IMG/VR virus record: IMGVR_UViG_3300045988_165036
Location: 32,001-96,000 of that record
From: a virus
Length of the DNA: 64,000 bases
Reading direction: 5' to 3' (one strand)
Under the pieces are notes generated by a model. It saw only the letters and a list, made by a program, of their open reading frames with translations, did not search any database and was not told where the DNA came from. Position 1 is the first letter of the stretch; the number at the start of each line of letters is the position of its first letter. Shown one piece after another: positions 1 to 59,920 of this stretch. Position numbers and translations under genes: made by a program.

Positions 1-335
1 CTGCGGTTGCTCGTGAGGCGGGTCTTGATCTCGACCAAACTGCAGCAGCGTTGACTACAATGATTGACGTGTCGCAGCAGGATGCGAGCAGTGTTGGTAA
101 CGCTTTCAGAACGATTCTTGCGAGATACGGGAATGTTAAAGCAACTGCGTTTACTTCTTTGGTTGGCGACTCTGATGATGTTGACGACACAAATAGTTCT
201 ATAAACGATACCGAAAAAGTACTCGGAGCGATTGGGATTAAAATCCGTTCGTCTTCGAGTGATATGCGTGACTTTGATGACGTTATGGATGAGCTCGCTG
301 ACAAGTGGGTAACTCTTACCGACGTCGAAAAGAAT
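1..335 (+). CDS. tail tape measure protein, exon 1 (5' partial, enters window from upstream)
   Basis: Frame is open from nt 3. The peptide ...AFRTILARYGN...DFDDVMDELADKWVTLTDVEKN is typical of a TP901-type tape measure core. The sensible frame breaks after AAT 333-335 and resumes at 638 and 2153. Confidence 0.8.
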
Positions 336-637
336 TTGAAACAAAGTTCCATTATGGAGCAATCCATAATTGCAAACCCATTGAATTGCTGGAACGCCCT
401 TAGAGTAGTATAAACTAAAACATAGCGATGAAATATACGCAAGTGTGAATGTGGAAAATTATACTGATTGGGTAATCAGCAGCTAAGCTCCGAATAGGAG
501 AAAGTTCAACGACTAAGTGGTGGCAAGCGCCATCCAGTGGTGGGCTCCACGAAAGTGGATGATGAGATAGTCTAATCTCATATGAAAGTATGAGGAACAA
601 AAGTTCGTATGATTTAGCGAATCATATAAATAAAATG
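336..637 (+). mobile_element. group I intron 1 (ORF-less) in tape measure gene
   Basis: 302 nt. P1 can be drawn with the splice-site U.G wobble (g332-a-a-U335 pairs G346-t-t-c349, extended by t336 t337/a344 a345). Hairpins attatgga-gcaa-tccataat (351-370) and ccac-gaaa-gtgg (547-558, GNRA loop). Core block aggagaaaGTTCAACGAC (496-513), then AGTCTA (569-574) followed by hairpin ctcata/tatgag. Terminal G637 directly precedes in-frame exon 2. Confidence 0.7.
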
Positions 638-28291: not shown

Positions 28292-28346
28292 GTGCGTTTT
28301 AGCAAAATAAATAAAAGTGGGTTTTTATTTTTATTTTCAAAACCTC

Positions 28347-28375
28347 TTGACAAAAATGGGTTTTTGTGGTATACT
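28347..28375 (+). promoter_or_regulatory. sigma70/sigmaA-type promoter
   Basis: TTGACA 28347-28352, 17-bp spacer, TGgTATACT ending at 28375. Confidence 0.75.
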
Positions 28376-28429
28376 ATGCTCAAGGCAGAGACCTGCTAAC
28401 ATCATATTATTGTAAAGGAGTTAGAAAAA

Positions 28430-34452: not shown

Positions 34453-34460
34453 AAACTTTC

Positions 34461-34488
34461 AAAACCCTCTTGACAACGAGAGGGTTTT
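34461..34488 (+). terminator. terminator-like hairpin whose loop carries the -35 box
   Basis: aaaaccctct (34461-34470) pairs perfectly with agagggtttt (34479-34488). Loop is tgacaacg. 3' T-run present. Confidence 0.5.
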
Positions 34489-34498
34489 GTGTTATACT
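34470..34498 (+). promoter_or_regulatory. sigma70/sigmaA-type promoter
   Basis: TTGACA 34470-34475, 17-bp spacer, TATACT 34493-34498. Confidence 0.75.
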
Positions 34499-34528
34499 TA
34501 TGATAGAAACTGGAAGGAGAATTGATTT

Positions 34529-35640: not shown

Positions 35641-37248
35641 ATGTGTCAGATGGAACAGTTTGTAACAGGTGTTGTTGATCAGTATCCGCAGGAGCTTCTT
35701 GAAAATAGATTAACAATTGAAGGAAATTTAATTGCGTGCCTTTACGCAGATATTACGCTGTATGACGATATAAAATCCACGGTTTCTTCGGAAACATTTC
35801 TCTCTCGGCACGGAAGACTTCTTTTTGGAGTTGTTAAATATCTTCGCGAAAAGCACTTTAATGTAATCGATGAGGTGACAGTTCTTTCCAATTGTCCGGA
35901 AGAGGTCCTTGATCGTCTGCAGAGTATCGGTGGTTGGAAGACAATTCAGAAACTTGCTTCCACCGTTGATCTGAAGAACTGGGATGCGATTCTGGACGAG
36001 TTCAACAAAAGCAACATTATTCTGAAACTTCACAAGAATGGATTTAATCTTCTCGAAGAAGTAACGCTTGACAATGGGAAGAAGATTAAACCACTGAAAC
36101 TGTTTGAGAAGTTTAGCGCCAACAACGTTACTGAATGGTATGAAGAGAGGATTGCTAATATTTCAATTAACAATAGCGCTTCTTCGATGAAGATTATTAG
36201 TGACGGAGCTGCTTTGTTTGGGGATGAGTTTCTTGAAAGTTTGAAAGAAGACGGAGATGATGGGGTATCTCTTAGTGAGGCTGGATTGAATTTTGAAGAA
36301 AAAGAAATACCGATGTTTCCATTTTTGTCAAGACAGACATCTGGACTTCATCGTGGGACAACGAGTGCGCTCGCCTCTCACTCCGGATGCGGTAAAACAA
36401 ACCTTATGATGAACATTGTCTTTACTCTTCTTCAAAAGGGGCTTCGTGGCGTTTTTATTAGTAACGAAATGTCAGAAAGAGAACTAAAAATAATTATGAT
36501 GATGATTATTTTGGTTCAATATAGAAATTATTGGAAGATTACGAAGAAAAAGCTTCGTAATAACGATTTGACAGAGGAAGACAAAGACGAAGTTCGAGCT
36601 GCTTCGAAATGGTGGGATAATGGACCAGGAAAAAACTTAAAAATTGTCACAATGAGCGACGCCGATTCCTCTTTGACACATGATATTATTAAAAAAGAGG
36701 CTCTTCGCAATGGAATTGATTTTTATGTCGTGGACACTTTCAAGATGACACTCGAAGAGGGTGGAAACTCTGCGTTCTGGATTGATTTGATTAAAGATTC
36801 TCGAGATATGGATTCTCTCGCGAAAAAATACAATCTTATCGGTCTTTATACCATTCAGCTTGTTGCGAACAGTATTGGAAACCTGTTCCTTAATGCGTCG
36901 GCACTTTCCGGTTCGAAAGCTATAAAAGAGGTTGTCAGTTTGTTGTTTTTCCTTAGAAAATGTGAGGCAGAAGAGCTCGAAGCAGGCGGCCCATATGATT
37001 TCAGACCGTTTAGGTCGAAACAACAATCCGATGGATCGTGGAAAGATGAACCATACGATCTGGATGAAAAAGAGCGCAGAGAGGTTTATCGCGTTTTATC
37101 AGTTGACAAAAATCGATACGGAGCGGATGCTGGAGATAACGGAGTTGCGTTCTTGTATAAATATCGTGGGGATTTTTGTAAATGGGGAGAAACTTGTAAG
37201 GTTAGACCTGTTCATAAACGAATTGGACAGGATACAAACGCAAGATAA
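35641..37248 (+). CDS. DnaB-like replicative helicase
   Basis: Walker A SHSGCGKTNLMMN, Walker B FYVVDTF, RecA-like C-domain. Confidence 0.8.
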   Translation: MCQMEQFVTGVVDQYPQELLENRLTIEGNLIACLYADITLYDDIKSTVSSETFLSRHGRLLFGVVKYLREKHFNVIDEVTVLSNCPEEVLDRLQSIGGWKTIQKLASTVDLKNWDAILDEFNKSNIILKLHKNGFNLLEEVTLDNGKKIKPLKLFEKFSANNVTEWYEERIANISINNSASSMKIISDGAALFGDEFLESLKEDGDDGVSLSEAGLNFEEKEIPMFPFLSRQTSGLHRGTTSALASHSGCGKTNLMMNIVFTLLQKGLRGVFISNEMSERELKIIMMMIILVQYRNYWKITKKKLRNNDLTEEDKDEVRAASKWWDNGPGKNLKIVTMSDADSSLTHDIIKKEALRNGIDFYVVDTFKMTLEEGGNSAFWIDLIKDSRDMDSLAKKYNLIGLYTIQLVANSIGNLFLNASALSGSKAIKEVVSLLFFLRKCEAEELEAGGPYDFRPFRSKQQSDGSWKDEPYDLDEKERREVYRVLSVDKNRYGADAGDNGVAFLYKYRGDFCKWGETCKVRPVHKRIGQDTNAR

Positions 37249-37271
37249 AAAATGAGTAAGGAGAAAATAAA

Positions 37272-37757
37272 ATGATTATTATTGGATTTCCCGGGATTGG
37301 TAAAAGTAGCGTAACTCGCGCATATGAGGGCGACGCCAACACAACTGGTTATATCGACCTTGAAAGCAGTAATTTTGTTAAGGACGACAACTGGGTGAAG
37401 GAATACTGCGACCTTGCTCTTGACCTTGATTTACAGGGATATAATGTTTTTGTTTCGTCTCACAAGAATGTGCGAGAATATTTAGTAGAGAAACAAGACA
37501 TTTTTCCGTACATTATGGTGATATTCCCGTCGAAAGAAATACGTACCGAGTGGCTGAACAGGCTCGAATCTCGTTATATGAAGTGCAAAACTGATAAAAA
37601 CGAAAGAGCTCTAAGCTATATGCGCAACAATTTCGATGATGCCGTAGATGAAATGGAGCACGATGCGATTGTTCATAAGGTTCTGATCACCAAAGAAAAT
37701 ATGAATGATTTGAAGAAGGCGATGGTGGATTATTGGAATAAGTGGTATTCTGAATAA
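37272..37757 (+). CDS. P-loop (nucleotide/nucleoside) kinase-like protein
   Basis: MIIIGFPGIGKSSV Walker A. 161 aa. Confidence 0.55.
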   Translation: MIIIGFPGIGKSSVTRAYEGDANTTGYIDLESSNFVKDDNWVKEYCDLALDLDLQGYNVFVSSHKNVREYLVEKQDIFPYIMVIFPSKEIRTEWLNRLESRYMKCKTDKNERALSYMRNNFDDAVDEMEHDAIVHKVLITKENMNDLKKAMVDYWNKWYSE

Positions 37758-37759
37758 TT

Positions 37760-38038
37760 AAAAAAATAATTTTATTTGGAGGATATTGTGGTCAACCGCC
37801 CAGTTTCCTAAATGAGATGTGGGCTTGAGTAATCGAGCCCACTGATTGATCAGACTAAGTGTTTCGAGCACTACGTTATCAAAGAATATATAGGCACCGT
37901 TGGATGTACTCTCCAGTCTGACGCACTGCGGTATGTGATTAAACAGTTCTGATGGGTAGGAACAGTGTTGCATACGAAAACCTTTGAATAACATTGTCGT
38001 GGAGTAACTACTCTAACATACAGGAGGTTATAGAAACA
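37760..38038 (+). ncRNA. candidate IscB omegaRNA (locus 2)
   Basis: ~280-nt non-coding stretch 5' of the second iscB. Shares ACTACGTT (37870-37877) and GGATGTACTCtcCAGTCTGAcGCaCTGCG (37902-37930) with locus 1. Hairpin gtgggcttgagtaatcgagcccac. Confidence 0.65.
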
Positions 38039-39286
38039 TTGGTGTATGTGTTAAACAAACAAAGTAATCCCTTGATGCCTTGTAAAGAAGCAAAAGCAAG
38101 AAAATTGCTAAAACAAAATAAAGCTATTATAGTAAAATATGAGCCATTTACAATTCAATTGACTTTTGAGTGTGAAAATCAAACGCAAGAAATTTCTCTC
38201 GGAGTTGATGCTGGAAGTAAACACATTGGCATTTCTGCAACAACAGAGAAACAAGTTTTGTATGAAGCAGACGTTGAATTAAGAAACGATATCGTAGATA
38301 AACTCTCTTCTCGTAGAGAAGCAAGAAGAACGAGAAGAAACAGATTGAGATATCGTCCCACAAGATTCAACAATCGAGTTCATTCAAAACACAAAGGTTG
38401 GCTTGCTCCAAGCATCGAGCAGAAAATCAATTCGCATATTCAGGCAATCAAAAGACTTCATCAAATTCTTCCGATTTCAAAAATTATTGTGGAAACGGCG
38501 CAGTTTGATATTCAAAAAATTCAGAATCCAGATATTGAAGGAGAACAATATCAACAAGGTGATCAAATGGGGTTTTGGAATGTACGTGAATATGTGCTTT
38601 TCAGAGATGATCACAAGTGTCAGTATTGTAAAGGAAAATCTAAAGACAATCGATTAAATGTTCATCATATTGAGGGTCGTAAGACGGGCGGAAACGCTCC
38701 GAATAATTTAATTACGTTGTGCGAAACCTGCCATAATGATTATCATCAAGGGAAAATTCAGCTAAATATTAAGCGCGGAAAGAGCTTTCGAGATGCGACA
38801 TTTATGGGCATTATGAGAAAGACATTGTTGTTGAGATTAAGGGAAATATATCCGAATGTTCAAGAAACTTTTGGTTATATTACGAAGAACACCAGAATTG
38901 AAAATAGTCTTCCGAAAGAACATTATATAGACGCAAGATGTATTAGTGGAAATCCTTTAGCAAAACCGTTAGGATATTATCTTTATTAAAAATGTGTTAG
39001 AAGACAAAATCGTAAAATGACGAAAGATAATTTTATCAGAGGTGGAGTTAAAAAAAGTAATCAGTTAGTTGGCGATGTCTTCGGATTTGGGTTATTTGAT
39101 ACGGTTGAATATCAAAAGAAGAAGTATTTTGTGTTTGGTAAACGAAAATCTGGATTTCTGGACATTAGAACACTTGATGGAGAAAAAGCTAACAACGGCT
39201 CTATAAGCTACAAAAAACTAAAATTAATTCAAAAGAATAATAATATATTAACAGAAAGGAGTTTGTCAATTCCTACGCAACCATAA
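38039..39286 (+). CDS. iscB: IscB RNA-guided nuclease with one in-frame TAA (38987-38989)
   Basis: PLMP (QSNPLMPCKEAKARKLL), RuvC-I (GVDAGSKHIGISA), bridge helix (RREARRTRRNRLRYRPTRFNNR), RuvC-II (IIVETAQ), HNH (CQYCKG..VHHIEG..NLITLCETCHND), RuvC-III (HYIDARCI). After ..GYYLY-TAA the same frame continues KCVRRQNRKMTKD... (TID-like) to 39286. Confidence 0.85.
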
Positions 39287-39316
39287 AGGGATTGCTGTTT
39301 CTTTGGCAATAGTATT

Positions 39317-39481
39317 ATGAACGAGGCGGTCAAAGTTGGGTTTTATCCAAAAGATTTGTTTATACTTTTAGCGAAGAACCGGCTTGTGGCAGATTGGCAA
39401 ATTCAGAATCAAAAGAACGCAAGAAAGTTTCATAGTTATTTTTGGGTCTTCGAAAAGTCTGACAAAAAAATAGAATATTAA
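39317..39481 (+). CDS. small hypothetical ORF (54 aa)
   Basis: ATG 39317 to TAA 39481. No motif and no strong SD. Confidence 0.3.
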   Translation: MNEAVKVGFYPKDLFILLAKNRLVADWQIQNQKNARKFHSYFWVFEKSDKKIEY

Positions 39482-39488
39482 TTTTTGC

Positions 39489-39515
39489 AAAACCTCTTGA
39501 CAAACAGGAGGTTTT
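39489..39515 (+). terminator. terminator-like hairpin whose loop carries the -35 box
   Basis: aaaacctc (39489-39496) pairs with gaggtttt (39508-39515). The loop contains TTGACA. Confidence 0.45.
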
Positions 39516-39525
39516 GCGCTATAAT
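39497..39525 (+). promoter_or_regulatory. sigma70/sigmaA-type promoter
   Basis: TTGACA 39497-39502, 17-bp spacer, TATAAT 39520-39525. Confidence 0.75.
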
Positions 39526-39613
39526 AATAGTAGAAATGAAAGATTGGCTTTATTTACAAAGGATTTTTGAAAAGGAGAGAAAAAAATGACTATTGTTGAC
39601 TTTTATAAGAAAG

Positions 39614-40801
39614 GTGAAAGCGATTATAAAAACAATTCGAGTAATGTTGCTTCCAAACAACAAACAGCAAACTAAATTATTTCAATATGCCAATACTGCT
39701 CGTTTTGCTTATAACTGGGCAATAGGAAGAGAACAAGAAAATTATAAGAATGGTGGAAAATTTATATCTGATGGAGACTTACGAAAAGAGTTTACACAAT
39801 TAAAGAAAACTTCTGAATATGCGTGGCTAAACAATGTTTCTAACAATGTAACAAAGCAAGCAATTAAAGATGCTTGTGAGGCGTACAAAAATTTCTTTAA
39901 GGGAATTACAAAGTCCCCACGATTTAAGAGTAAGAAATATTCAATGCCGAAATTCTACCAAGATAATGTAAGAATTCAGTTTACAGACACACATGTAAAG
40001 ATTGAGGGTTTTGCTACGTCTAAGAAAAAGAATAAGCAAAGACTTAACTGGATAAGACTTGCCGAACGCGGAAGAACACCTATTGGAAATACAAAGTATA
40101 TGAATCCACGCATTAAATATGATGGACTTAATTGGTATATCACAGTTGGAATTGAATACGAAAATTCTACCGCTCCTCCAACCAACGAAGGTGTTGGAAT
40201 CGATTTAGGCATTAAAGATTTGGCAATATGTTCTGACAAGAACAAGTATCAGAATATAAACAAAACCCAAAGAGTTAAGAAGTTAGAAAAAAGAAAGCGC
40301 AGGCTACAACGTTCCATATCAAGAAAATATGAGAATAATAAGAAAGGAGAGCGTTACTGCAAAACAAGCAATATTATAAAAAGTGAAAAAGAACTTTTAA
40401 AATTGAATCACAGACTAACGAATATTCGTCAGAACTACCTACATCAAACAACATCTGAAATTGTAAAACGAAAACCAAGTTTTATCTGTATGGAAGATTT
40501 GAATGTGAGTGGAATGATGAAGAATAAACATTTGTCTAAAGCAGTTCAGCAACAAGGGTTTTATGAATTTAGGAGACAGATTGAATATAAGTCTGAGTGG
40601 AATAACATTCCAGTAATTATAGCAGATAGATTCTTCCCGAGTTCTAAGTTATGTAGTTGTTGTGGAAATATCAAAAAGGATTTGAAACTTAGCGACCGCA
40701 TTTACAAGTGTGAATGTGGAAATATCATAGATAGAGATTATCAAGCAAGTCTAAATCTGAAAAGACATGGAGAAATGTTATTAGAACAATCTGCATTATA
40801 A
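39614..40801 (+). CDS. tnpB: TnpB RNA-guided nuclease (IS200/IS605 OrfB family)
   Basis: RuvC triad contexts GIDLGIKD / CMEDLN / IDRDYQASLN. Zn-ribbon CSCCG..CECG. N-terminus IRVMLLPNNKQQTKLFQ. GTG 39614 chosen as start (the longest ORF starts at TTG 39593). Confidence 0.9.
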   Translation: MKAIIKTIRVMLLPNNKQQTKLFQYANTARFAYNWAIGREQENYKNGGKFISDGDLRKEFTQLKKTSEYAWLNNVSNNVTKQAIKDACEAYKNFFKGITKSPRFKSKKYSMPKFYQDNVRIQFTDTHVKIEGFATSKKKNKQRLNWIRLAERGRTPIGNTKYMNPRIKYDGLNWYITVGIEYENSTAPPTNEGVGIDLGIKDLAICSDKNKYQNINKTQRVKKLEKRKRRLQRSISRKYENNKKGERYCKTSNIIKSEKELLKLNHRLTNIRQNYLHQTTSEIVKRKPSFICMEDLNVSGMMKNKHLSKAVQQQGFYEFRRQIEYKSEWNNIPVIIADRFFPSSKLCSCCGNIKKDLKLSDRIYKCECGNIIDRDYQASLNLKRHGEMLLEQSAL

Positions 40802-40975
40802 CACTTTCAAGTTAATGCAGATATGTACTGGCACGTTAGTCAGGAATTTACGCCTATAGAGTGTACAAGAACTTGTGAGTAGTATATCAGAAATGATTAC
40901 AAAAGCATATACGATGAAATAGGAATGAAACATAAAAGTTTATAACTTTTTATAAGTTTTCAGTAACGGAAGCCA
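40700..40975 (+). ncRNA. candidate TnpB omegaRNA/reRNA (locus 1); boundaries approximate
   Basis: By the known architecture, the omegaRNA overlaps the tnpB 3' end and the right end of the element. Perfect 10-bp hairpin atctgcatta/taatgcagat spans the stop codon. A ~175-nt non-coding tail runs up to the primase start. Confidence 0.45.
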
Positions 40976-40977
40976 CG

Positions 40978-41988
40978 ATGCTCACAGATGTTAAACAAAT
41001 GTTAATAGAAAACCCAGAGCACATCGTGGAATTGCTCGAAAGGTTTGAGTTCTGCCACATCCATCTCAAACGAACAGAAATTCGGTTTGCCCGTAACGAA
41101 GAAGGTGGTCAGAACATCTCAATTCGGCTCGAAGATAATCCTTCAATTTATGTTAAAGATTTCGTAACAAATGAGAACGGCGACATTATCGCGTATATAA
41201 TGAAAAGTCGTTCGGTGAAGTTTGTCGAAGTCTTGTCGGAAATCAAGAGCGTTCTCGGGCTTGGAGACGATTGGGAGCCCCCAAAGCGCGATATGTTGTT
41301 CGGTGGATTTTATGACCGAATTGGAGAGGATAGACATATTGAGATTACGACGTATCCCGAATCGATTATGGACCAATATGTCGATAAGGGAAATCGGCGC
41401 TGGCTCGATGATAACATTTCACTTGCGGTTCAGCACGAGTTCGGGGTCAGATTTGACCCGATAGAAGACCTGATTGTGTTTCCGTGGAGGTCGCCCGTCG
41501 GAGGAGAGATTATCGCAGTAAAAGCTCGCGTTAATCACCCGTTGGAAGATGGTCAACAGAAATATTGGTATGTTTACAAGGGCGCCGTCAGTAATTCTCT
41601 TTATGGTATTATGGAGAATTATAGCGGACTGTTTGGAAACGAAATTTGTGTTGTTGAAAGCGAAAAAGCCGTCCAGCAACTGGCGACAATGGGATATCGA
41701 AACACAGTGGCTCTTGGGTCGAGCAATTTGTCAGAGGAGCAGGCTCGGCTAATTATGACGCTTTCTCCGACTTCCGTTGTGTTCTTGTTGGACGAAGGAC
41801 TGGAAAAGGAACACACGATGAAAAATGTGGAAACATTGCGTCAGTATTGCGTATTAAGAGATTTGCCGATTCGTTGGTGGAATTGGACGAAAAGCTCGGT
41901 TGTTGATGGGAGCGGGAAGAATAGTCCGACCGATTTGGGGAAAGAGAGGTTTGACAAGGTTATGAGAGAGGAGCTAGAAGTGATTTAA
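40978..41988 (+). CDS. TOPRIM-domain DNA primase
   Basis: VVESEKAVQQLATMGY (TOPRIM Glu) and VVFLLDEGLE (DxD-like). Lies upstream of the polymerase. Confidence 0.6.
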   Translation: MLTDVKQMLIENPEHIVELLERFEFCHIHLKRTEIRFARNEEGGQNISIRLEDNPSIYVKDFVTNENGDIIAYIMKSRSVKFVEVLSEIKSVLGLGDDWEPPKRDMLFGGFYDRIGEDRHIEITTYPESIMDQYVDKGNRRWLDDNISLAVQHEFGVRFDPIEDLIVFPWRSPVGGEIIAVKARVNHPLEDGQQKYWYVYKGAVSNSLYGIMENYSGLFGNEICVVESEKAVQQLATMGYRNTVALGSSNLSEEQARLIMTLSPTSVVFLLDEGLEKEHTMKNVETLRQYCVLRDLPIRWWNWTKSSVVDGSGKNSPTDLGKERFDKVMREELEVI

Positions 41989-42947
41989 TGGGCGCATTTA
42001 AAGATATAACTGGACAGCAATTCGGAGACTTCATCATCGACTCTTTTGACCCGACAAAAGGTAAGTATAAATATTATTGGAATTGTCATTGTGTAAAATG
42101 TGGTTATAAAAAATCAGTAGAAGGAAGCAGTATTAGAGCCGGAAATAGTACAAGATGTATTTGTGATAAGTCTTTTGGACGAAGAGAAAGTCTCGGATAC
42201 GAAAAAGATATATCTGGAAAAGTTTATGGTGGTTTAACTGTTTTGGGCTATTGCGACACGAAAAGCACACGTTCAAGATGGCTGTGTAAATGCAATTGTG
42301 GGAACGAGGAAGTTTTTAGTATTTCACAATTAAAAAGAAGAAAAAATCTGATGTGTTCCCAATGTGTGGAAAAATATAAAGATATAAGAAATGTGATTTC
42401 AGAAGAAAATTTAGACTCTAATGGGATTCCAATAAATATTGTTCAATCTACTCAAAGAAAACAAAACAAATATGAAATTCAAAACGATGAGACTATTATC
42501 AACGATAAAATTATTGTAGATAGTAAGTTTATGGATTGTTTGAAATCATTCGATAGATACATTAGTATAGACAGCCGTGGATATGCATATTTTTCATATT
42601 GTGGTCAAGATGTATATTTACACAGACTTTTGACAAACACCTCATTATTTTTCGATACGAATGGCAAAGACATAGAAATAATCGATCATATAAACAGAAA
42701 TAGATGCGATAACAGAATTGAAAATTTAAGAACGATTAAAAAATCTGAAAACTCCATCAATTGTTCAGTATATTCAAATAATAAAAGTGGGTATAAAGGT
42801 ATTTCTTGGCTTGAAAGATTACAAAAATGGCAAGTGAACATTCAATACAGAAAGATAAATTATTATGTTGGCGTGTTTGAAAATATTGATGATGCAATTT
42901 TAGCAAGAAAACGAGCAGAAATGGATTTATTTGGAAAGGTGAATTAA
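41988..42947 (+). CDS. HNH-AP2 homing endonuclease (free-standing)
   Basis: IDHINRNRCDNRIENLR (HNH_3-type) and SGYKGISWLERLQKWQVNIQYRKINYYVGVF (AP2-type). N-terminal Cys-rich repeats. Confidence 0.8.
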   Translation: MGAFKDITGQQFGDFIIDSFDPTKGKYKYYWNCHCVKCGYKKSVEGSSIRAGNSTRCICDKSFGRRESLGYEKDISGKVYGGLTVLGYCDTKSTRSRWLCKCNCGNEEVFSISQLKRRKNLMCSQCVEKYKDIRNVISEENLDSNGIPINIVQSTQRKQNKYEIQNDETIINDKIIVDSKFMDCLKSFDRYISIDSRGYAYFSYCGQDVYLHRLLTNTSLFFDTNGKDIEIIDHINRNRCDNRIENLRTIKKSENSINCSVYSNNKSGYKGISWLERLQKWQVNIQYRKINYYVGVFENIDDAILARKRAEMDLFGKVN

Positions 42948-42949
42948 AA

Positions 42950-45900
42950 ATGCAAAATCTTCATCGGCATACTTCGTATTCAAATGTTTGTATTGCAGAT
43001 TCTGCGGCAACAAATGAACAATATGCCAAAAGAGCGGTAGAATTGGGTCACAAAGTAATTAGTAGCGTCGAGCACGGGTGGCAGGGATATTATTATCAAT
43101 GTTATGAACTTGCTCAAAAATATAATCTCAAATTTGTTTTTGGAGCAGAGGCATATTGGGTAAAAGACAGGAAAAAAGAATATGAAGAAATTGATCCATT
43201 GACAGGAGAACCGTTAAAAAATAAAGACGGAACAATAAAGGCGCATAAAGATAACTCTAATTGTCATATATTACTTCTTGCAAAAACAGAAATCGGAAGA
43301 CGCGCCATCAACAAAATTCTTTCAGAGGCAAACGAAACGGGGTATTATTTTAGACCCCGTGTCGATCTCGAACTTCTTCTTTCCCTCCCTCCTGACGATG
43401 TGGTCGTAACAACTGCTTGTGTGGCATATTGGAAATATGAAGATATCGAAGATATTACTCTTCGGTTGTGGAAACATTTTGGAAAAAACTTTTATCTGGA
43501 GATCCAAGCGCATAAAACAGAACAACAGAGAGAAATCTCCCGTAGAATTCTTTCCTTGTCGCGAAGATATGGAATTGAAATGATTGTTGGTCTTGACAGT
43601 CATTACATTTATCCGGAACAGGCACAGGAGAGAGAATATATTCTTGAAGCAAAAGACGTCCATTATAAAGACGAAGAGGGGTGGTATATGGACTATCCCG
43701 ACGACGAAGAGGTTATGAGACGTTTTATGGAGCAAGGAGTTTTTACAAGGGAACAGGTTCAAAGAGCGATGGATAACACGGACATCTCTCTAACGTTTGA
43801 TGATTATGCAAAAGACAATCCTGTTTTCAGCAAAGATATTAAACTTCCTACTCTTTATCCGAATCTTTCACAAGAAGAAAGAAACAAAAAATATAGTGTT
43901 CTGATTAGTAAGCTTTTTAGAGAGTATGCAGAGAAACATCACATTACGGGAGAAGAGTATAAGAGATATCTTGAAGGAATCAAAATGGAAGTTCAGACGG
44001 TTAAAGATACCGGAATGGCCGATTACTTCCTTCTCGACTATGAAATCGTCAAAAGAGCGATTGAAAAAGGGGGCGTTTTGACAGACAGTGGAAGAGGATG
44101 TTTTACGTCTGACGCAATGGCTTTAACGATGGGCGGAATCAAACATATTAACGAAGTTAAAGTTGGAGATTTTGTAATAGATCAAAACGGAAATCCGCAA
44201 AAAGTTGTTAACACAATGGAATATGATTGCGATGAGGAAATAGTTCAACTTCTTTATGCATATGGACCAAATACTCATAATCCATTGATTTGCACAAAAG
44301 ATCACAAGATCTTGATTCATAGAAACGGGCAAAATTCTTGGATTGAAGCCGGGAAAATTCAGCAAGGAGACTATGTTTGTTCTCCGAAAATTCATTTCGA
44401 AAATCGAGCACCTGAATATATTGATTTAAATGATTATAATGTTTTTGGGTATGATTTTGACGACGAATACATTTACGAATATCGTCCAGCTGCAAATGGT
44501 GTTGTTGAATTTAACTCCATTGATGTTTCTAAACACATTGGATGTTCCAAGCCGTGGGTTTTGCAAGTCGTTAAAAATCCTAATCGCACGAAGTTTAAGC
44601 ATCCCGAATATGTGGACAGATTATTGAAATATACCGGATTTAGTTCTCTTCAAGAATATAGGGATTATTTAAAAAACTCTCATGTTATCAAGATTAAGAG
44701 ATTTATAAAAAACGACGAGCTGTTCAACACGTGGATTGGTATGATGTATGGCGATGGATGGGTTCGCGGCGCGAAAGAATCTACAGAGGTTGGAATGGCG
44801 TTTTCTACCTATGGACACAAACAGTCTTACAACAGAGAGATTTGTATTAAAATGATCGAACGTTTTGGTGCTCCGTATAATTGTGCCATCCATAAAACAA
44901 AACAATTGGAACAAATTATTATGAAGAGCCGCATCGTTAATGAATTTTGTAAAAATTTTCTATTCACAAGTAAGAAGGGAAAGGCAAAAATCTTTAATCA
45001 AGATTTATTTTATCAATCCGAAAATAACTTAAGCGCGCTATTAAACGGTTTAACGATTACTGATGGGAGCATGGGAAAAGAAAAAAGAAGAGACAGCTTT
45101 GACAACACGTCTCAAAGCATTGTTGGAGCATATAAAATTTTAGTGTCGGCAGTCTCTCCTTGCCCCACAAGTCTGCTTGTCAGAAACGCATACGAAGATA
45201 GTAGAGGATATCATTCTCAGACTGGTTATAAAATAAGAGTTATGAAAGATACGGACACTCATGTGCTTTCGGCGTATAGAACTCTTTCTGACAACAACTA
45301 TGTTTATCTTCCTGTTTCTCAAATTAAGGCAATTGAGAAAAGCAAACGAAAAGTATATGACATTACCGTTGAAAATTCCCACAGTTATGTATTAGATAGC
45401 ATAGTTGTTCATAATTCATCAGTTGGATATTTCACAAACACTCTTCTTGGTTTTTCAAAAGTCGATAGATTTCAAAGTCCGATAACTCTTTATCCTGAAC
45501 GATTTATTAGTAAAACAAGAATTCTAGAAACCCATTCTCTTCCAGATATTGATATGAACTGGGGAACCCCCGAAATTGCAGAAGAAGCACAGAAAGAAAT
45601 TCTTGGAGACGACCACGCAATTCCAATGATCGCCTTCGGAACCTGTAAAAAGAAGTCGGCGTTTAAATTGTTCGCTCGTTCTCAAAATATGGATTTCGAA
45701 CTGGCAAACACCATCTCTTCGCAAATTGCAGATTATGAAGAAGCAGTTAAAAACGCAGAAGATGATGATAAAGATCAGATTGATATTTATGATTTTGTAG
45801 ATAAAAAATATTCCAACTATATTGAACAGAGCAAAAAGTATTGGGGCATTATTATGGATAAGAAGAAAGCTCCTTGTGCCTTTCTTCTTTATCAAGGCAA

Positions 45901-47554
45901 TATCCGAGAAGAAATTGGTCTGATTAAATGTAAGTCGGAATCAACAGGAAAAGAATTTTTAACAGCCGTTGTAGACGGAGCGATTGCAGAAAATTATAAA
46001 TTTCTAAAAAACGATATTCTTTGTGTAAGTATTGTTCTTTTGGTTGATAAGATTTATCGTAGAATTGGAATTCCGCACAAAACGGTTGAAGAACTGAAAG
46101 ATTTCGTTAAAAACGATCCAAAAACTTGGGACATTTATAAAAACGGATATACTCTTGGGGTTAATCAGTGTGAGCAAGTAAGTTCTGCAAAGAAAATGAT
46201 GCGCTTTCAAGCAAAAAACATTTCAGAACTTTCGGCGTGGATTGCCGCAATTCGCCCTGCTTTCAAGTCGATGTACTCCAAGTTTGAATCGAGGGAATCT
46301 TTTAGTTATGGAATTCCTGCCTTTGACAAACTCCTACAGACAGAAGAACTTCCGCAGTCGTGGATTTTGTATCAGGAGCAGTCGATGTCTGTTCTTTCGT
46401 ATGCAGGATTTCCGATGGATGAATGTTATGGAATCATAAAGGCAATTGCTAAAAAACACCCCGAAAAGGTTCGTCCGTTGAAGGATAGATTTATCGAAGG
46501 ATTCAAAAAGAGGATTGTTACAGAGGAAGGAATTGAAGAAACTCAAGCGCAGGAAATGAGCGAACGGGTTTGGCAAATCATCAACGACTCTTGCGGGTAC
46601 GGTTTCAATTCTGCTCACGCATATTGTATGGCAATCGATAGTCTTTCTTGCGCAATGTTGAAAGCGAATTATCCATACGAATTTTATGAGGTGCTTTTAC
46701 AGTTCCATTCAGATAGAGGAGAAAAAGATAAGGTTGGCGCTCTAAAAGCGGAAATGAAAAAGGCTTTTGGAATTCAAGAAGGTCCATATCGATTTGGAGA
46801 AGATAACCGAAAGTTTAATGCAATTCCGGAAAGAGGAATTATTCAACCGTCTCTCTTGTCAATTAAGGGATTGAGTCAGGATTTGGCAAACGACCTTTAT
46901 GAACTTTCTAAAACAAAACGATTCGATAATTTTATAGACCTGTTGAGAGAATTCGATCATATGAAATCAATGAATGTTGCGAAGTTGGATACATTGATTA
47001 AACTCAATTATTTCTCGCAATTCGCACCTATTGGAAAACTTCTGAACATTGTCGAGCTCTATAATAAGTTCGGAACCAGCAAAACACTCAAAGAATCTGA
47101 CGTTTTGTCTCTTCCAACGCCTATTCAAGAAGTTATTGCAAAATATACCGTTAAACCGAAAACACAGTATAAAATCACAGATAGCGACGGAATGCTCCGG
47201 GAACTCGCGGGGTTGGTTGGAGAACGCCCGATTACGATGATGATGCGGCTGGAATGGGAGCAACAGTATTTGGGTTATTGCGCTTCTACCGACCCATCGC
47301 AACAGGGAAGTTGGTTAGTTCTGGACGCCGATACTAAATATTCTCCGAAGTTGACAATTTTTTCTATTTGGAGTGGAGAACAGCGTGTTGTTAAAGTCTC
47401 GAAGCGCGACTTCCAATCCAATCCTCTCACCAAAGGTGATACAATTCGTCTGACTATCGAACAACGTCCGAAGGCGAAGCTCGTAGATGGACAGTGGGTT
47501 AAGGACGAAAACGTTAAAGAAGATTGGCTAAAATATTATTCAATTGTAAAGTAA
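42950..47554 (+). CDS. dnaE: DNA polymerase III alpha (DnaE-type) precursor containing an intein
   Basis: PHP domain (NLHRHTSYSN...SSVEHGW). Pol III core SGRG/SSVGYFTNTLLGFSKVD is split by the intein. 1534-aa ORF. Confidence 0.9.
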   Translation: MQNLHRHTSYSNVCIADSAATNEQYAKRAVELGHKVISSVEHGWQGYYYQCYELAQKYNLKFVFGAEAYWVKDRKKEYEEIDPLTGEPLKNKDGTIKAHKDNSNCHILLLAKTEIGRRAINKILSEANETGYYFRPRVDLELLLSLPPDDVVVTTACVAYWKYEDIEDITLRLWKHFGKNFYLEIQAHKTEQQREISRRILSLSRRYGIEMIVGLDSHYIYPEQAQEREYILEAKDVHYKDEEGWYMDYPDDEEVMRRFMEQGVFTREQVQRAMDNTDISLTFDDYAKDNPVFSKDIKLPTLYPNLSQEERNKKYSVLISKLFREYAEKHHITGEEYKRYLEGIKMEVQTVKDTGMADYFLLDYEIVKRAIEKGGVLTDSGRGCFTSDAMALTMGGIKHINEVKVGDFVIDQNGNPQKVVNTMEYDCDEEIVQLLYAYGPNTHNPLICTKDHKILIHRNGQNSWIEAGKIQQGDYVCSPKIHFENRAPEYIDLNDYNVFGYDFDDEYIYEYRPAANGVVEFNSIDVSKHIGCSKPWVLQVVKNPNRTKFKHPEYVDRLLKYTGFSSLQEYRDYLKNSHVIKIKRFIKNDELFNTWIGMMYGDGWVRGAKESTEVGMAFSTYGHKQSYNREICIKMIERFGAPYNCAIHKTKQLEQIIMKSRIVNEFCKNFLFTSKKGKAKIFNQDLFYQSENNLSALLNGLTITDGSMGKEKRRDSFDNTSQSIVGAYKILVSAVSPCPTSLLVRNAYEDSRGYHSQTGYKIRVMKDTDTHVLSAYRTLSDNNYVYLPVSQIKAIEKSKRKVYDITVENSHSYVLDSIVVHNSSVGYFTNTLLGFSKVDRFQSPITLYPERFISKTRILETHSLPDIDMNWGTPEIAEEAQKEILGDDHAIPMIAFGTCKKKSAFKLFARSQNMDFELANTISSQIADYEEAVKNAEDDDKDQIDIYDFVDKKYSNYIEQSKKYWGIIMDKKKAPCAFLLYQGNIREEIGLIKCKSESTGKEFLTAVVDGAIAENYKFLKNDILCVSIVLLVDKIYRRIGIPHKTVEELKDFVKNDPKTWDIYKNGYTLGVNQCEQVSSAKKMMRFQAKNISELSAWIAAIRPAFKSMYSKFESRESFSYGIPAFDKLLQTEELPQSWILYQEQSMSVLSYAGFPMDECYGIIKAIAKKHPEKVRPLKDRFIEGFKKRIVTEEGIEETQAQEMSERVWQIINDSCGYGFNSAHAYCMAIDSLSCAMLKANYPYEFYEVLLQFHSDRGEKDKVGALKAEMKKAFGIQEGPYRFGEDNRKFNAIPERGIIQPSLLSIKGLSQDLANDLYELSKTKRFDNFIDLLREFDHMKSMNVAKLDTLIKLNYFSQFAPIGKLLNIVELYNKFGTSKTLKESDVLSLPTPIQEVIAKYTVKPKTQYKITDSDGMLRELAGLVGERPITMMMRLEWEQQYLGYCASTDPSQQGSWLVLDADTKYSPKLTIFSIWSGEQRVVKVSKRDFQSNPLTKGDTIRLTIEQRPKAKLVDGQWVKDENVKEDWLKYYSIVK
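44099..45415 (+). mobile_element. intein with LAGLIDADG homing endonuclease domain (439 aa)
   Basis: Starts with Cys right after SGRG (CFTSDAMALTMGG). Block B TKDHKIL. LAGLIDADG motifs WIGMMYGDGW and LLNGLTITDGS. Ends VVHN, followed by Ser +1. Confidence 0.85.
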
Positions 47555-56978: not shown

Positions 56979-57043
56979 ATGAATTGCGCTTAGAATGTTA
57001 TAAATTAAACAATATATTAAAAATCAAAAAGGAGGTGAAGGGC

Positions 57044-58159
57044 GTGGAAAAGGCTTATAAATACCGCATATACCCAAACGAACGGCAAAAAGAAATAATT
57101 GCAAAAACATTTGGTTGTTGCCGATTTGTATATAACAAATATCTTGCAGAAAAGATTGAATTATATAAAACCGAAAAGAAAAACATAACATATGTTAAAT
57201 GTGCAAAAGCAATGTCTGAATTGAAAAACGAGCTTGAATGGCTTACGGAAGTCGATTCCACGGCTCTTCAATCCTCGTTAAAAGACTTAGATAACGCTTA
57301 TAAAAAATTTTTCAAAGAACATGCGGGTTATCCAAAATTCAAAAGCAAGAAAGATAATCATAAGTCTTACAAATCTAAATACACAAATGGTAATATAGAA
57401 TATCTGAACAACCACATTAAACTACCGAAACTTGGTTTGGTAAAAACGAGAAACAAGTTAATACCGCAAGGAAGGATAGTTAATGCAACAATATCACAAG
57501 AACCAACTGGAAAGTATTTTGTATCGTTGTGTTGTGTGGGCGTGAATATTCAGCCATTACCAACCACAAACAATTTGGTCGGTATAGATTTGGGGATTAA
57601 AGAATTCTGTATAACCAGTGATGGTGAGCTTGTGAACAACCCGAAATATCTTAAACAATCTCTTGACAAGCTTGCGAAAGTGCAGAGAGAACTATCTCGA
57701 AAAACAAAAGGTGGCTCTAACCGCAATAAAGCAAGAATAAAAGTTGCGAGATTGTACGAGAAGGTTTCTAATCAACGAAGAGACTTTTTGCAAAAACTTT
57801 CAACGCAAATAATAAAAGAAAATGACATGATTTGTCTCGAAGATTTGCAAGTTAAGAATATGGTTAAAAACCATAAACTTGCACGAGCAATCAACGATGT
57901 TTCTTGGTCGGAGTTTGTAAGAGAATTAGAATATAAAGCTCGTTGGTATGGAAGGACGGTAATTAAAGTCAGCAAATTCTTTCCGAGTTCACAGACTTGC
58001 AGTATTTGCGGTTGTAAAAATGCAGAAACAAAAAGTCTTAAGGTTAGAGAGTGGGATTGCCCCGTTTGTCACGCACACCATGACAGAGATGTAAATGCGG
58101 CGATAAATATTTTAAACGAAGGATTAAATGTTTGGCGGAATGAGAAAAATATGTTATAA
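57044..58159 (+). CDS. tnpB: TnpB RNA-guided nuclease (IS200/IS605 OrfB family)
   Basis: N-terminus [17 protein letters not shown]. RuvC triad contexts GIDLGIKE / CLEDLQ / [10 protein letters not shown]. Zn-ribbon CSICG..CPVC. SD aaaggagg 7 nt before GTG 57044. Confidence 0.9.
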
Positions 58160-58359: not shown

Positions 58360-58710
58360 TTGATTGTGTTTTGTAAAAACGCGGTATATTCATACGACGA
58401 AAGCGTTCATTATGAGATAGAAGAAGTTGATGTTGATGATGAGATGGAGGGCGGAAGAATGAAAGATCAAAAACACATTCCCGGCAAGCCGATGTATTCC
58501 GTTGGAGATCGGGTTTCTTTTCAAATGACCATTGATGAAAATATTGAAATCTTCGACGGAACTATCGAAATTGTCGATAGATTTGGCGCGTGGGATATTG
58601 ACTACCCCAGCGAACCCTCATACGACATTTTGGTTTGTAACTGGCGTGGAAGCGGAGAGATAATGCTCGTCAAACATATTAGAGAATCGGTAATCACGAA
58701 AAAATATTAA
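58360..58710 (+). CDS. hypothetical protein (start uncertain)
   Basis: ORF from TTG 58360. The strongest SD (ggaggg) precedes ATG 58459. The frame is open from 58300. Confidence 0.5.
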   Translation: MIVFCKNAVYSYDESVHYEIEEVDVDDEMEGGRMKDQKHIPGKPMYSVGDRVSFQMTIDENIEIFDGTIEIVDRFGAWDIDYPSEPSYDILVCNWRGSGEIMLVKHIRESVITKKY

Positions 58711-58729
58711 ATTATTTTCCATAAACCTC

Positions 58730-58758
58730 TTGACAACCAAGGTGTCTTGTGATATAAT
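58730..58758 (+). promoter_or_regulatory. sigma70/sigmaA-type promoter
   Basis: TTGACA 58730-58735, 17-bp spacer, TATAAT 58753-58758. Confidence 0.75.
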
Positions 58759-58786
58759 AATAGTGGAAACGAAAGGAGGAAATAAA

Positions 58787-59817: not shown

Positions 59818-59844
59818 AGCCATAAAGAAATTTACTAAAACCCC

Positions 59845-59873
59845 TTGACAACCAAGGTGTCTTGTGATATAAT
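59845..59873 (+). promoter_or_regulatory. sigma70/sigmaA-type promoter
   Basis: TTGACA 59845-59850, 17-bp spacer, TATAAT 59868-59873. 34 nt identical to the promoter at 58729-58762. Confidence 0.75.
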
Positions 59874-59920
59874 AATATCAGAAGGAAGAGTCCTTCAAAA
59901 TATTTTTGAGAGGAAAAATT

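What the first reader, a model, noticed from the sequence alone, without database searches (positions are those of the whole stretch)
39489..40977. TnpB element wedged between a phage consensus promoter and the primase gene, adjacent to IscB 2
TnpB 1 (intact RuvC D/E/D contexts and Zn-ribbon) lies directly downstream of one of the phage's own consensus promoters (39497-39525). Its ~175-nt non-coding tail ends 2 nt before the primase start. The element therefore seems to have inserted between promoter and primase, and is now co-transcribed with an essential replication gene. Together with IscB 2 it forms a 3.2-kb OMEGA island between the kinase-like and primase genes.
Basis: partly seen in the sequence, partly recalled or inferred. 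Interest (0 to 1): 0.65.

Follow-up and report, generated by a model that had tools for sequence, protein, structure and literature searches.

The report
Transposase-less TnpB cassette before phage primase
A gut phage carries a stripped-down copy of a known RNA-guided nuclease element (IS607-type TnpB with its guide RNA) at the ribosome-binding site of its primase gene; it is a new example of a known system, probably spreading between related phages by cutting their empty sites.

Summary
A TnpB gene with intact catalytic motifs, a perfect phage promoter at 39497-39525 and a structured non-coding tail are all present.

The element belongs to the published IS607 TnpB family guided by RAGATH-18-derived reRNA (Ren et al. 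2024, PDB 8IAZ). The cassette (39592-40969) has lost its tnpA recombinase gene and the outer left end, so it cannot transpose.

Its right end stops at ...CAGTAACGG (40969), inside the primase Shine-Dalgarno. The predicted 20-nt guide (40970-40989) covers the primase spacer, ATG and first codons.

Related phages show the history:
- Five carry empty sites (AGAAAGG|AAACCACGATG...). One matches guide positions 1-16 perfectly.
- One relative (L009) has the same cassette with a 165-aa gene between promoter and tnpB, and no IscB 2.

So the element inserted at the primase RBS. Its position next to the promoter, and IscB 2, came from separate events.

Across the family, insertions sit at the Shine-Dalgarno/spacer boundary. 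dN/dS of about 0.08 argues that TnpB was maintained. However, its canonical ATG is ATT here.

The most likely function is RNA-guided homing or exclusion between co-infecting phages; this is not shown. It is a new member of a known kind, of moderate interest.

The parts
39497..39525 (+). Phage sigma-70-type promoter (TTGACA-N17-TATAAT). It predates the cassette and is not part of it. It is the only strong promoter that can drive tnpB, the reRNA and the primase.
   Evidence: 12/12 consensus match. It is homologous to the promoter in L009 and in the empty-site relative L004. Window 39480-39562 aligns to L009 3982-4064 at 75/83.
39574..39675 (+). GGAGAG ribosome-binding site (39574-39579) and a 29-aa ORF (ATG 39586 to TAA 39673-39675). 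The ORF runs in the frame of the lost tnpA C-terminus and overlaps the 5' end of tnpB. It is probably a by-product.
   Evidence: Read from the sequence. Alignment with CB457P1 and MT838565 shows that the tnpA 3' tail ...EEGENDDKNNSSNVTSKQQTAN* corresponds to this frame. The gene caller lists a 29-aa product on the identical contig L090.
39592..39609 (+). Remnant of the inner left end (ATTGTTGACTTTTATAAG). The outer left end, with its GTTATAAA repeats and the ..TAACTGTT.. terminus, is missing.
   Evidence: Relatives that keep the left end carry ..GG|TATATAAC(T/A)GTT..TTATAAAAAGTTATAAA..ATTGTTGACTTTTATA... In the window and L009 the sequence upstream of ATTGTTGAC is unrelated to this.
39623..40801 (+). 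tnpB, an RNA-guided RuvC nuclease. The canonical start codon is ATT here, where L009 and CB457P1 have ATG. Alternative in-frame starts are TTG 39593, GTG 39614 and ATG 39644.
   Evidence: Pfam domains. PHROG 506 at 4.9e-110. 8IAZ_A at E 7.6e-84 with D/E/D conserved. 98% DNA identity to L009 with dN/dS about 0.08. The start codon difference is codon 11 of the TTG-started ORF.
40781..40969 (+). reRNA (omegaRNA) scaffold. It starts about 20 nt before the tnpB stop codon, contains the RAGATH-18 motif (40853-40925) and ends in ...UUUUCAGUAACGG. This end is also the transposon right end, which finishes in GG.
   Evidence: Rfam RF03064 at 69.4 bits. The 187-nt scaffold length is taken from Ren et al. 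2024. Conservation stops exactly at AACGG in 48 copies. 20 of 38 predicted pairs show compensatory changes across 28 distinct copies. Single-sequence fold z-score is -2.4.
40970..40989 (+). Predicted 20-nt guide, AAGCCACGATGCTCACAGAT. It covers the primase spacer, the ATG (40978-40980) and codons 2-4. The register could shift by up to 2 nt if the scaffold ends at ...AAC.
   Evidence: It follows the conserved right end directly. It is unique in the window. Empty sites in relatives read AGAAAGG|AA(A/G)CCACGATGCTCAC.... The 20-nt optimal guide length is from Ren et al..
40978..41988 (+). DNA primase gene. It is the target and flank of the element, and its translation initiation region is now formed partly by the element's terminal GG.
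   Evidence: PHROG 47 'DNA primase' at 1.5e-18. Weak Pfam Toprim_4 hit. 84-97% identical homologues in L004-L009.
37776..39479 (+). Neighbouring but separate IscB 2 element. It comprises the HEARO omegaRNA (37791-38011) and iscB (37994-39286), which is interrupted by an in-frame TAA at 38987-38989.
   Evidence: Rfam HEARO at 128.6 bits. Pfam RRXRR and HNH. The stop codon appears, and the gene is called as 316 + 89 aa on L090. The segment is absent from L009.

Best explanation
Window 39592-40969 is a transposase-less, left-end-truncated derivative of an IS607-family insertion sequence. It belongs to the subfamily whose TnpB is guided by a RAGATH-18-containing reRNA, the ISFba1 type.

Shown:
- The ancestral element landed at the GG of the primase Shine-Dalgarno sequence (AGAAAGG|AAnCCACG-ATG), in the same orientation as the primase. 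This is what the family does in general: its left flanks end in purine-rich ..RRRGG, and a start codon usually follows the right end within 4-11 nt.
- tnpA and the outer left end are gone, so the cassette can no longer be moved by a serine recombinase.
- In this phage the 165-aa gene that separates promoter and cassette in the sister phage L009 is also missing. The phage promoter at 39497 now sits about 100 nt upstream of tnpB.

Inferred:
- One transcript carries the 29-aa leftover ORF, tnpB, the reRNA scaffold and the primase.
- TnpB binds the scaffold. The 20 nt that follow, which are the primase initiation region, act as the guide.
- The RNP cuts related phage genomes that have the uninterrupted site, meaning purine-rich ..GG followed by a matching primase 5' end. 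By analogy with ISFba1, the cut would fall about 16-22 nt in, within primase codons 3-5.
- During co-infection the break is either lethal to the competitor or repaired from the TnpB-bearing genome, which copies the cassette. This is RNA-guided homing of the kind seen with free-standing homing endonuclease genes.
- The element's own locus is spared because AACGG, with C at -3, replaces the purine-rich motif.
- The ATG-to-ATT change probably keeps TnpB output low.
For: Family identity:
- Pfam domains.
- 8IAZ_A at E 7.6e-84 with the RuvC D/E/D conserved.
- RAGATH-18 at 69.4 bits.
- Ren et al. 2024 showed experimentally that such TnpB-reRNA pairs are RNA-guided dsDNA nucleases. They use a 187-nt scaffold, a 20-nt guide and TAM AGGAG or GAGGG.

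Boundaries:
- 48 copies share the right end and diverge exactly after AACGG.
- About half of 43 relatives carry an IS607-type TnpA upstream. The rest have none, or only fragments of it in L017, L020 and L056, as in the window.
- The window keeps only an 18-nt inner left-end piece.

Insertion history:
- Empty sites occur in L004, L005, L006 and L008 and in L096.
- L009 has the same cassette plus the 165-aa gene and no IscB 2.

Site preference:
- 14 of 14 distinct left flanks end in purine-rich ..GG.
- 18 of 28 distinct right flanks have an open ATG within 14 nt, against 14.6% for random window 40-mers.

Maintenance:
- dN/dS is about 0.08 between the window and L009 tnpB.
- The reRNA shows covariation.
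- The identical arrangement lies on a 134-kb gut metagenome contig (L090). The identical primase occurs on at least 25 contigs whose neighbouring genes are mostly the same.

Natural target:
- L096 has AGAAAGG followed by a sequence matching guide positions 1-16.

Transcription:
- There is a single strong promoter and no + strand terminator up to 43200.
Against: - No expression, processing or cleavage data could be obtained.
- The canonical tnpB ATG is ATT in this phage. Translation may be weak, or may start elsewhere and lose part of the first beta-strand.
- The TAM-side sequence at the primase site (AGAAAGG) is not the published AGGAG or GAGGG. ISFba1 tolerates no TAM substitutions.
- The TAM-contact region N121/N122 is not alignable here because of a 7-aa insertion.
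- Four of the five known empty sites differ from the guide at positions 1-3. ISFba1 is mismatch-sensitive.
- The neighbouring IscB 2 is broken, so OMEGA elements do decay in this genome.
Confidence: 0.6

Rival explanations
1. Inert relic. The cassette is a dead remnant of an IS607 copy that is simply carried along in the replication operon. TnpB is no longer made in useful amounts, and nothing is cut.
For: - The start codon is ATT where relatives have ATG.
- tnpA and the outer left end are lost.
- The adjacent IscB 2 has a premature stop.
- Ren et al. report that many IS607 loci carry degraded genes.
Against: - The 393-codon ORF is otherwise open, with all catalytic and zinc-binding residues present.
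- There are 27 synonymous against 9 non-synonymous codon differences to L009, giving dN/dS of about 0.08.
- The reRNA scaffold is conserved and covarying.
- In-frame TTG, GTG and ATG starts exist nearby, and AUU can initiate at low efficiency (established knowledge).
- The arrangement is found unchanged on many metagenome contigs.
Confidence: 0.25
2. Domesticated regulator of the primase. The guide is the primase ribosome-binding spacer and start codon. TnpB binding and processing of the shared transcript would then control how much primase mRNA is translated. DNA cutting would be secondary or absent.
For: - The guide spans positions -8 to +12 of the primase start.
- tnpB, the reRNA and the primase share one promoter, with no terminator between them.
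- TnpB is known to process its own mRNA into omegaRNA. I saw only the title and abstract of Nety et al. 2023 (PMC10278001, listed).
- The family as a whole sits on translation initiation regions.
Against: - The RuvC triad is intact, unlike the nuclease-dead TldR regulators.
- Empty-site relatives express the primase without any such element, so no regulatory need is evident.
- The position at the RBS is explained more simply by the G-rich target and TAM preference of IS607.
Confidence: 0.1
3. Still-mobile transposon. The cassette is mobilised in trans by a TnpA supplied by another IS607 copy in the host or in a co-infecting phage.
For: - Full-length relatives with intact TnpA are common in similar phage contigs.
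- The right end is perfectly conserved.
Against: - The outer left end, which holds the repeated GTTATAAA motifs and the terminal ..TAACTGTT next to GG, is absent. It is replaced by unrelated sequence in both the window and L009.
- No second copy of the right end or of the cassette is found in the window.
Confidence: 0.05

Closest known systems
IS607 TnpB with RAGATH-18-derived reRNA (ISFba1 TnpB, PDB 8IAZ; Ren et al., Cell Res 2024, PMC11061315)
   Same: - Same protein architecture, with an E 7.6e-84 match and about half of the aligned positions identical by eye.
- RuvC D/E/D and the zinc ribbon are present.
- A RAGATH-18 motif sits inside a roughly 190-nt scaffold that overlaps the 3' end of tnpB, and the guide lies directly 3' of it.
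- The setting is human-gut Firmicutes.
- The target side is G-rich.
   Different: - It lies in a phage genome, whereas the paper describes the family from bacterial strains and their defence islands.
- tnpA is absent and the left end is truncated.
- The native TAM-side sequence is AGAAAGG rather than AGGAG or GAGGG.
- The region aligned to TAM-contact residues N121/N122 carries a 7-aa insertion.
- The start codon is ATT.
- Expression is from a phage promoter.
Full-length IS607-type element in Enterocloster phage CB457P1 (OP172753.1) and in many IMG/VR phage contigs
   Same: - 78.6% DNA identity across tnpB and the reRNA.
- Identical right end.
- Insertion at a purine-rich ..GG site next to a start codon.
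   Different: - Those copies keep the serine-recombinase tnpA and a complete left end, which holds a likely tnpA promoter (TTGACT...TAGAAT, my reading of the left-end sequences).
- They sit at other genes.
IS200/IS605 TnpB (ISDra2; Karvelis et al. 2021) and its homing role (Meers et al. 2023)
   Same: - The guide is read from the flank beyond the right end.
- The nuclease cuts the empty site and so favours retention or spread of the element.
   Different: - That family uses a Y1/HUH TnpA, single-stranded 'peel and paste' transposition, AT-rich TAMs such as TTGAT, and subterminal hairpins.
- None of these is seen here.
Free-standing homing endonuclease genes of T-even phages (SegF, SegB, Mob; intronless homing and marker exclusion)
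   Same: - A nuclease gene sits between conserved replication genes.
- It is present in some related phages and absent in others.
- It is co-transcribed with its neighbours.
- It is predicted to cut the allele that lacks it during co-infection.
   Different: Target recognition here would be by a guide RNA plus a short motif rather than by the protein. The +/- element junction itself separates self from non-self.

Membership tests
IS607-family TnpB / RAGATH-18 reRNA system | TnpB protein with HTH_OrfB, OrfB_IS605 (RuvC) and zinc-ribbon TNB domains and an intact D/E/D triad | tested here: met
   Pfam hits. Alignment to 8IAZ_A with GIDLG, MEDLN and DRD conserved.
IS607-family TnpB / RAGATH-18 reRNA system | RAGATH-18 motif in a conserved structured RNA directly downstream of, and overlapping, the 3' end of tnpB | tested here: met
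   RF03064 at 69.4 bits against a gathering score of 44.9, at 40853-40925. 20 of 38 pairs show compensatory changes in 28 copies.
IS607-family TnpB / RAGATH-18 reRNA system | Serine-recombinase TnpA (MerR-like HTH plus resolvase domain) encoded upstream of tnpB | tested here: not met
   Absent from the window. Only the last few codons' worth of the tnpA tail frame survives. It is present in about half of the relatives. The window copy is therefore a derivative, not a complete IS607.
IS607-family TnpB / RAGATH-18 reRNA system | Element terminates in GG, with no terminal inverted repeats and no target-site duplication | tested here: met
   The right end ...CAGTAACGG is invariant in 48 copies. 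Left flanks also end in GG. The review PMC13565253 states that most IS607 members end in GG.
IS607-family TnpB / RAGATH-18 reRNA system | Complete left end with repeated TnpA-binding motifs | tested here: not met
   Only ATTGTTGACTTTTATAAG remains. The GTTATAAA repeats and the terminus seen in L010, L022, L027, L038, L054 and L001 are missing.
IS607-family TnpB / RAGATH-18 reRNA system | TAM 5'-AGGAG or 5'-GAGGG next to the target | tested here: inconclusive
   Empty sites read AGAAAGG. The motif is purine-rich and ends in GG, like three other native sites of this subfamily (L017, L022, L054). It is not the published motif. The register is uncertain by 1-2 nt.
IS607-family TnpB / RAGATH-18 reRNA system | reRNA-guided double-strand DNA cleavage | not testable with these tools
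   Needs biochemistry or an interference assay.
IS200/IS605 TnpB elements (ISDra2 type) | Y1/HUH TnpA, subterminal hairpins and an AT-rich TAM (such as TTGAT) at the left flank | tested here: not met
   Relatives carry a serine recombinase instead. Flanks are G-rich.
Free-standing phage homing endonuclease genes (functional analogy) | Presence/absence polymorphism between otherwise collinear related phages, with the nuclease's target in the allele that lacks it | tested here: met
   The window and L009 carry the cassette. L004, L005, L006, L008 and L096 do not, at the same junction. L096 matches guide positions 1-16.
Free-standing phage homing endonuclease genes (functional analogy) | Biased inheritance or gene conversion in co-infection | not testable with these tools
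   Needs phage crosses.

The most novel reading that the evidence does not exclude
This subfamily of IS607/RAGATH-18 elements may be a dedicated 'ribosome-binding-site homing' element. Its target and TAM motif would be the Shine-Dalgarno sequence itself. It always lands co-oriented at the Shine-Dalgarno/spacer boundary and so borrows the host operon's transcription. Its terminal ..ACGG would rebuild a weak Shine-Dalgarno for the downstream gene. Its guide would always be that gene's translation initiation region.

In phages, transposase-less copies such as this one would then act as RNA-guided free-standing homing endonucleases that decide which phage wins a co-infection. By holding the primase initiation region inside the RNP, they might also throttle an essential replication gene.

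The papers I could search do not make the Shine-Dalgarno connection. Ren et al. 2024 and the IStron preprint contain no mention of 'ribosome' or 'Shine'. None of the listed papers in the three-term search held TnpB, AGGAG and Shine-Dalgarno together.
Probability: 0.35. Interest if true: 0.65.

Novelty: new member of a known kind. Interest (0 to 1): 0.4.

Why it matters
It gives a concrete natural case of how an RNA-guided transposon nuclease lives inside a lytic-type phage replication module. The nuclease gene and guide RNA survive without the transposase, under purifying selection, at the start of an essential gene. Sister phages show the empty site, the fuller cassette arrangement (L009) and a second, unrelated TnpB at the same primase start.

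This makes the 'OMEGA nuclease as homing endonuclease between co-infecting phages' idea directly testable, with a defined guide, a defined target and a defined self site.

The family-wide preference for Shine-Dalgarno sites would explain the published AGGAG TAM in biological terms. It would also matter for predicting where these elements land and what they do to downstream gene expression.

The molecular system itself is already characterised, so this is an extension rather than a discovery of a new kind.

Tried and rejected
- **Near-identity search of 37000-42000 against the phage collection.** It found only the TnpB part, in CB457P1 and two fecal scaffolds. The phage backbone is not among deposited phages.
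- **'Escape' idea.** I considered that all empty sites carry seed mismatches (A instead of G at guide position 3). It looked consistent in IMG/VR. L096, an empty site with G at position 3 and a perfect 1-16 match, weakened it. Five of the six metagenome pattern hits were chance matches with no flanking homology.
- **Hairpin as a transposon end.** I considered that the hairpin-like inverted repeat over the -35 (39489-39516) was an IS200/605-type left end. I rejected this because the same block is present in relatives without the cassette and at other promoters in the window.
- **A full left end hidden upstream.** I rejected this because the 35 nt upstream of ATTGTTGAC in L009 matches nothing in the other loci.
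- **An internal promoter for tnpB from the left-end remnant (TTGACT).** No acceptable -10 follows it. The best nearby match is 9/12.
- **Python access to loci.** The Python sandbox received only alignments, so loci had to be pulled through DNA alignment. One such call (36) produced a very large output and added only the consensus left-end and tnpA sequence.
- **Structure prediction and large protein searches.** I did not run them, because the sequence match to a solved structure was already decisive.
Full report
**1. What is there**

The window is a phage genome of the human-gut Firmicutes type. Only the TnpB part has near matches among deposited phages: Enterocloster phage CB457P1 at 78.6% and two fecal scaffolds. 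An identical 11-kb stretch lies on a 134-kb gut metagenome contig.

The ORF 39593-40801 carries the three Pfam domains of TnpB. It matches the cryo-EM chain 8IAZ_A at E 7.6e-84, with the RuvC aspartate, glutamate and aspartate contexts and the CxxC...CxC zinc ribbon conserved.

TTGACA-N17-TATAAT at 39497-39525 is a perfect match. It is one of six perfect matches on the + strand and none on the - strand. It is the only perfect one between 37200 and 43200.

The 176-nt tail after the stop codon contains an Rfam RAGATH-18 match of 69.4 bits against a gathering score of 44.9. Upstream lies IscB 2 with its HEARO omegaRNA at 128.6 bits.

**2. Which family**

RAGATH-18-derived reRNAs are the guide RNAs of a published group of IS607-family TnpB nucleases (Ren et al. 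2024, PMC11061315). The published properties are:
- a 187-nt scaffold and a 20-nt guide;
- TAM 5'-AGGAG or 5'-GAGGG;
- an average protein length of about 390 aa;
- 97.8% of strains in Firmicutes, mostly from the human gut.

The window's protein, RNA motif and layout fit this family.

In CB457P1 and MT838565 the DNA upstream of tnpB encodes the C-terminus of a serine-recombinase TnpA that overlaps tnpB. In the window this gene is missing.

**3. Boundaries**

A search with the TnpB protein recovered 80 loci in IMG/VR phage contigs. Of the 89 loci then held, 48 contain the exact 19-mer TATAAGTTTTCAGTAACGG. In all 48, conservation stops exactly after ...AACGG and the flanks are unrelated. The right end in the window is therefore 40969, which is 8 nt before the primase ATG.

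On the left, relatives that keep a left end show this layout:
- flank ..RRRGG | TATATAAC(T/A)GTT .. TTATAAAAAGTTATAAA .. ATTGTTGACTTTTATAAG .. tnpA.

The window and its sister L009 keep only ATTGTTGACTTTTATAAG (39592-39609). This piece is fused to the last codons of the tnpA frame. The sequence further upstream is unrelated.

About half of 43 relatives have a complete TnpA. The rest have none, or only fragments of it in L017, L020 and L056. This agrees with the degradation reported by Ren et al..

The cassette is 39592-40969. With no tnpA and no outer left end, it should not be transposable.

**4. History of the locus**

Six related phages were found through the primase, and one more through a DNA pattern.

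- **L004** has the same promoter, followed by a 165-aa gene, three small ORFs and then ...CCAAGAAAGG|AAACCACGATGCTCACAGAT.
- **L005, L006, L008 and L096** also have uninterrupted junctions.
- **L009** has the same cassette at the same right junction (GG|AAGCCACGATG). It keeps the 165-aa gene between promoter and cassette, has the proper ATG start, and lacks IscB 2.

Window 39480-39562 aligns with L009 3982-4064, and window 39581-39677 aligns with L009 4604-4700. The window therefore lacks the 539 nt that hold the 165-aa gene. Window 37776-39479 (IscB 2) is an extra insertion.

The element inserted at the primase ribosome-binding site. The promoter came to lie next to it later, and IscB 2 arrived independently.

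A further relative, L007, carries a different TnpB of 369 aa. Its 3' tail replaces the first few primase codons. The primase start has therefore been hit at least twice.

**5. A family-wide rule**

All 14 distinct left flanks end in a purine-rich run ending in GG:
- GGAGG in five;
- AAAGG in three;
- AGAGG in two;
- GAGGG, AAGGG, GAAGG and GGGGG once each.

Of 28 distinct right flanks, 18 have an open ATG within 14 nt, mostly 4-11 nt. The figure for random 40-mers of the window is 14.6%.

Joining left and right flanks rebuilds ordinary Shine-Dalgarno, spacer and ATG arrangements. An example is CTGGAGG|TAATATTATG in L038. These elements therefore land at the Shine-Dalgarno/spacer boundary, co-oriented with the downstream gene, and their terminal GG keeps part of the Shine-Dalgarno.

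This fits two published points: the G-rich TAM, and the statement that IS607 ends in GG and inserts after G-rich sequence.

The papers I could search do not connect this to ribosome-binding sites. I cannot exclude that it is noted elsewhere.

**6. Is it maintained?**

- Between the window and L009, tnpB differs at 36 codons. Of these, 27 are synonymous and 9 are not, giving dN/dS of about 0.08.
- The scaffold shows compensatory changes at 20 of 38 predicted pairs across 28 distinct copies.
- The window RNA folds better than shuffles, with a z-score of -2.4.
- The identical primase lies on at least 25 metagenome contigs whose neighbouring genes are mostly the same.

Against activity in this particular phage, the family's start ATG is ATT (39623-39625). 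In-frame TTG 39593, GTG 39614 and ATG 39644 exist, and the gene caller chose the last of these. A well-placed GGAGAG plus ATG at 39586 opens a 29-aa ORF in the old tnpA frame, which overlaps the tnpB start.

**7. Predicted guide and target**

The guide is AAGCCACGATGCTCACAGAT (40970-40989). It covers the spacer, the ATG and codons 2-4 of the primase, and it is unique in the window.

| Empty site | Match to the guide |
|---|---|
| L096 | Positions 1-16 match; mismatches at 17 and 20 |
| L004 | One mismatch, at position 3 |
| L006 | Two mismatches |
| L005 | Differs within the first three positions |
| L008 | Differs within the first three positions |

The motif 5' of the target is AGAAAGG. At the element's own locus the corresponding sequence is GTAACGG. 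Position -3 is a purine in all 14 native left flanks and C in all 48 right ends. I infer that this is how self is spared.

The register is uncertain by up to 2 nt, because Ren et al. number the last scaffold base as C(-1).

**8. Mechanism and rivals**

The best-supported reading is a transposase-less RNA-guided homing or exclusion cassette, expressed from the phage replication-operon promoter. It would cut uninterrupted primase sites in co-infecting relatives. My confidence is 0.6 that it is active in this way.

The rivals are:
- an inert relic (0.25);
- a regulator of primase translation or processing (0.1);
- an element still mobilised in trans (0.05).

None of the functional steps (transcription, processing, translation, cleavage) could be tested here.

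**9. Verdict**

The finding is real and well delimited. The molecular system is already known, so this is a new member of a known kind in an informative setting. It is wrong on how the promoter came to be adjacent and on the element's family. It also missed the loss of tnpA and the left end, the ATT start codon and the broken IscB 2.

Noticed in passing
window 37776-39479: IscB 2 has a single in-frame TAA at 38987-38989. The stop separates the RuvC/HNH part (331 aa) from what I take to be the C-terminal target-interaction part (no Pfam match), so the protein is probably inactive. Its HEARO omegaRNA (37791-38011) is intact. The whole element is absent from the sister phage L009, where the site reads ...ATAATTTTAT|AAATTA|AATTTTCGC.
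   Followed up: partly
L007 4787-6010: A related phage carries a different TnpB (369 aa, starting [18 protein letters not shown]). Its 3' tail runs into the primase and replaces the first few primase codons with new sequence and a possible GTG start. This is a second, independent OMEGA insertion at the primase start.
   Followed up: partly
L010-L061 (IMG/VR loci), right-end and left-end flanks: This IS607/RAGATH-18 subfamily inserts at the Shine-Dalgarno/spacer boundary of genes, co-oriented with them. 14 of 14 left flanks end in purine-rich ..GG. 18 of 28 right flanks have an ATG within 14 nt. I did not find this stated in the searchable literature.
   Followed up: yes
window 39623-39625: The canonical tnpB start codon ATG (as in L009 and CB457P1) is ATT in this phage. 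A strong RBS plus ATG at 39586 opens a 29-aa ORF in the former tnpA frame, across the tnpB start.
   Followed up: partly
window 39462-39542; also 58696-58775, 28326-28376, 34457-34509, 59837-59883: The phage's promoter blocks are a repeated module. An inverted repeat (AAAACCTCTTG..CAGGAGGTTTT) overlaps the -35 element. It could be a terminator-promoter unit or an operator.
   Followed up: no
window 40688-40732 (tnpB codons 366-379): Synonymous differences between the window and L009 tnpB are bunched in a short patch over the zinc-ribbon region (13 of 36 differing codons). This suggests a recombination tract rather than even divergence.
   Followed up: no
window 326-594; 14888-16135; 41988-42947; 42950-47554; 56984-58159: The genome is crowded with other mobile or selfish elements:
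- a group I intron (Rfam, 84.6 bits);
- IscB 1;
- a free-standing HNH endonuclease gene right after the primase, which L004 and L009 replace with a 265-aa ORF;
- an intein in the DNA polymerase III alpha gene;
- a second, 31%-identical TnpB.
   Followed up: no
L089 about 1-1500 (upstream of its IS607 tnpA): Another phage contig appears to have an IscB gene (PLMP-type N-terminus ...GKPLMPCNPLKARKLLKQNKAKII...) within 3 kb upstream of an IS607 TnpA-TnpB pair. IscB next to IS607 may therefore recur.
   Followed up: no
L010 2915-3000: In this tnpA-less copy the left-end remnant is followed directly by a right-end-like ...AAGTTTTCAGTAACGG before tnpB. It looks like a miniature left-end/right-end junction placed ahead of the nuclease gene.
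   Followed up: no
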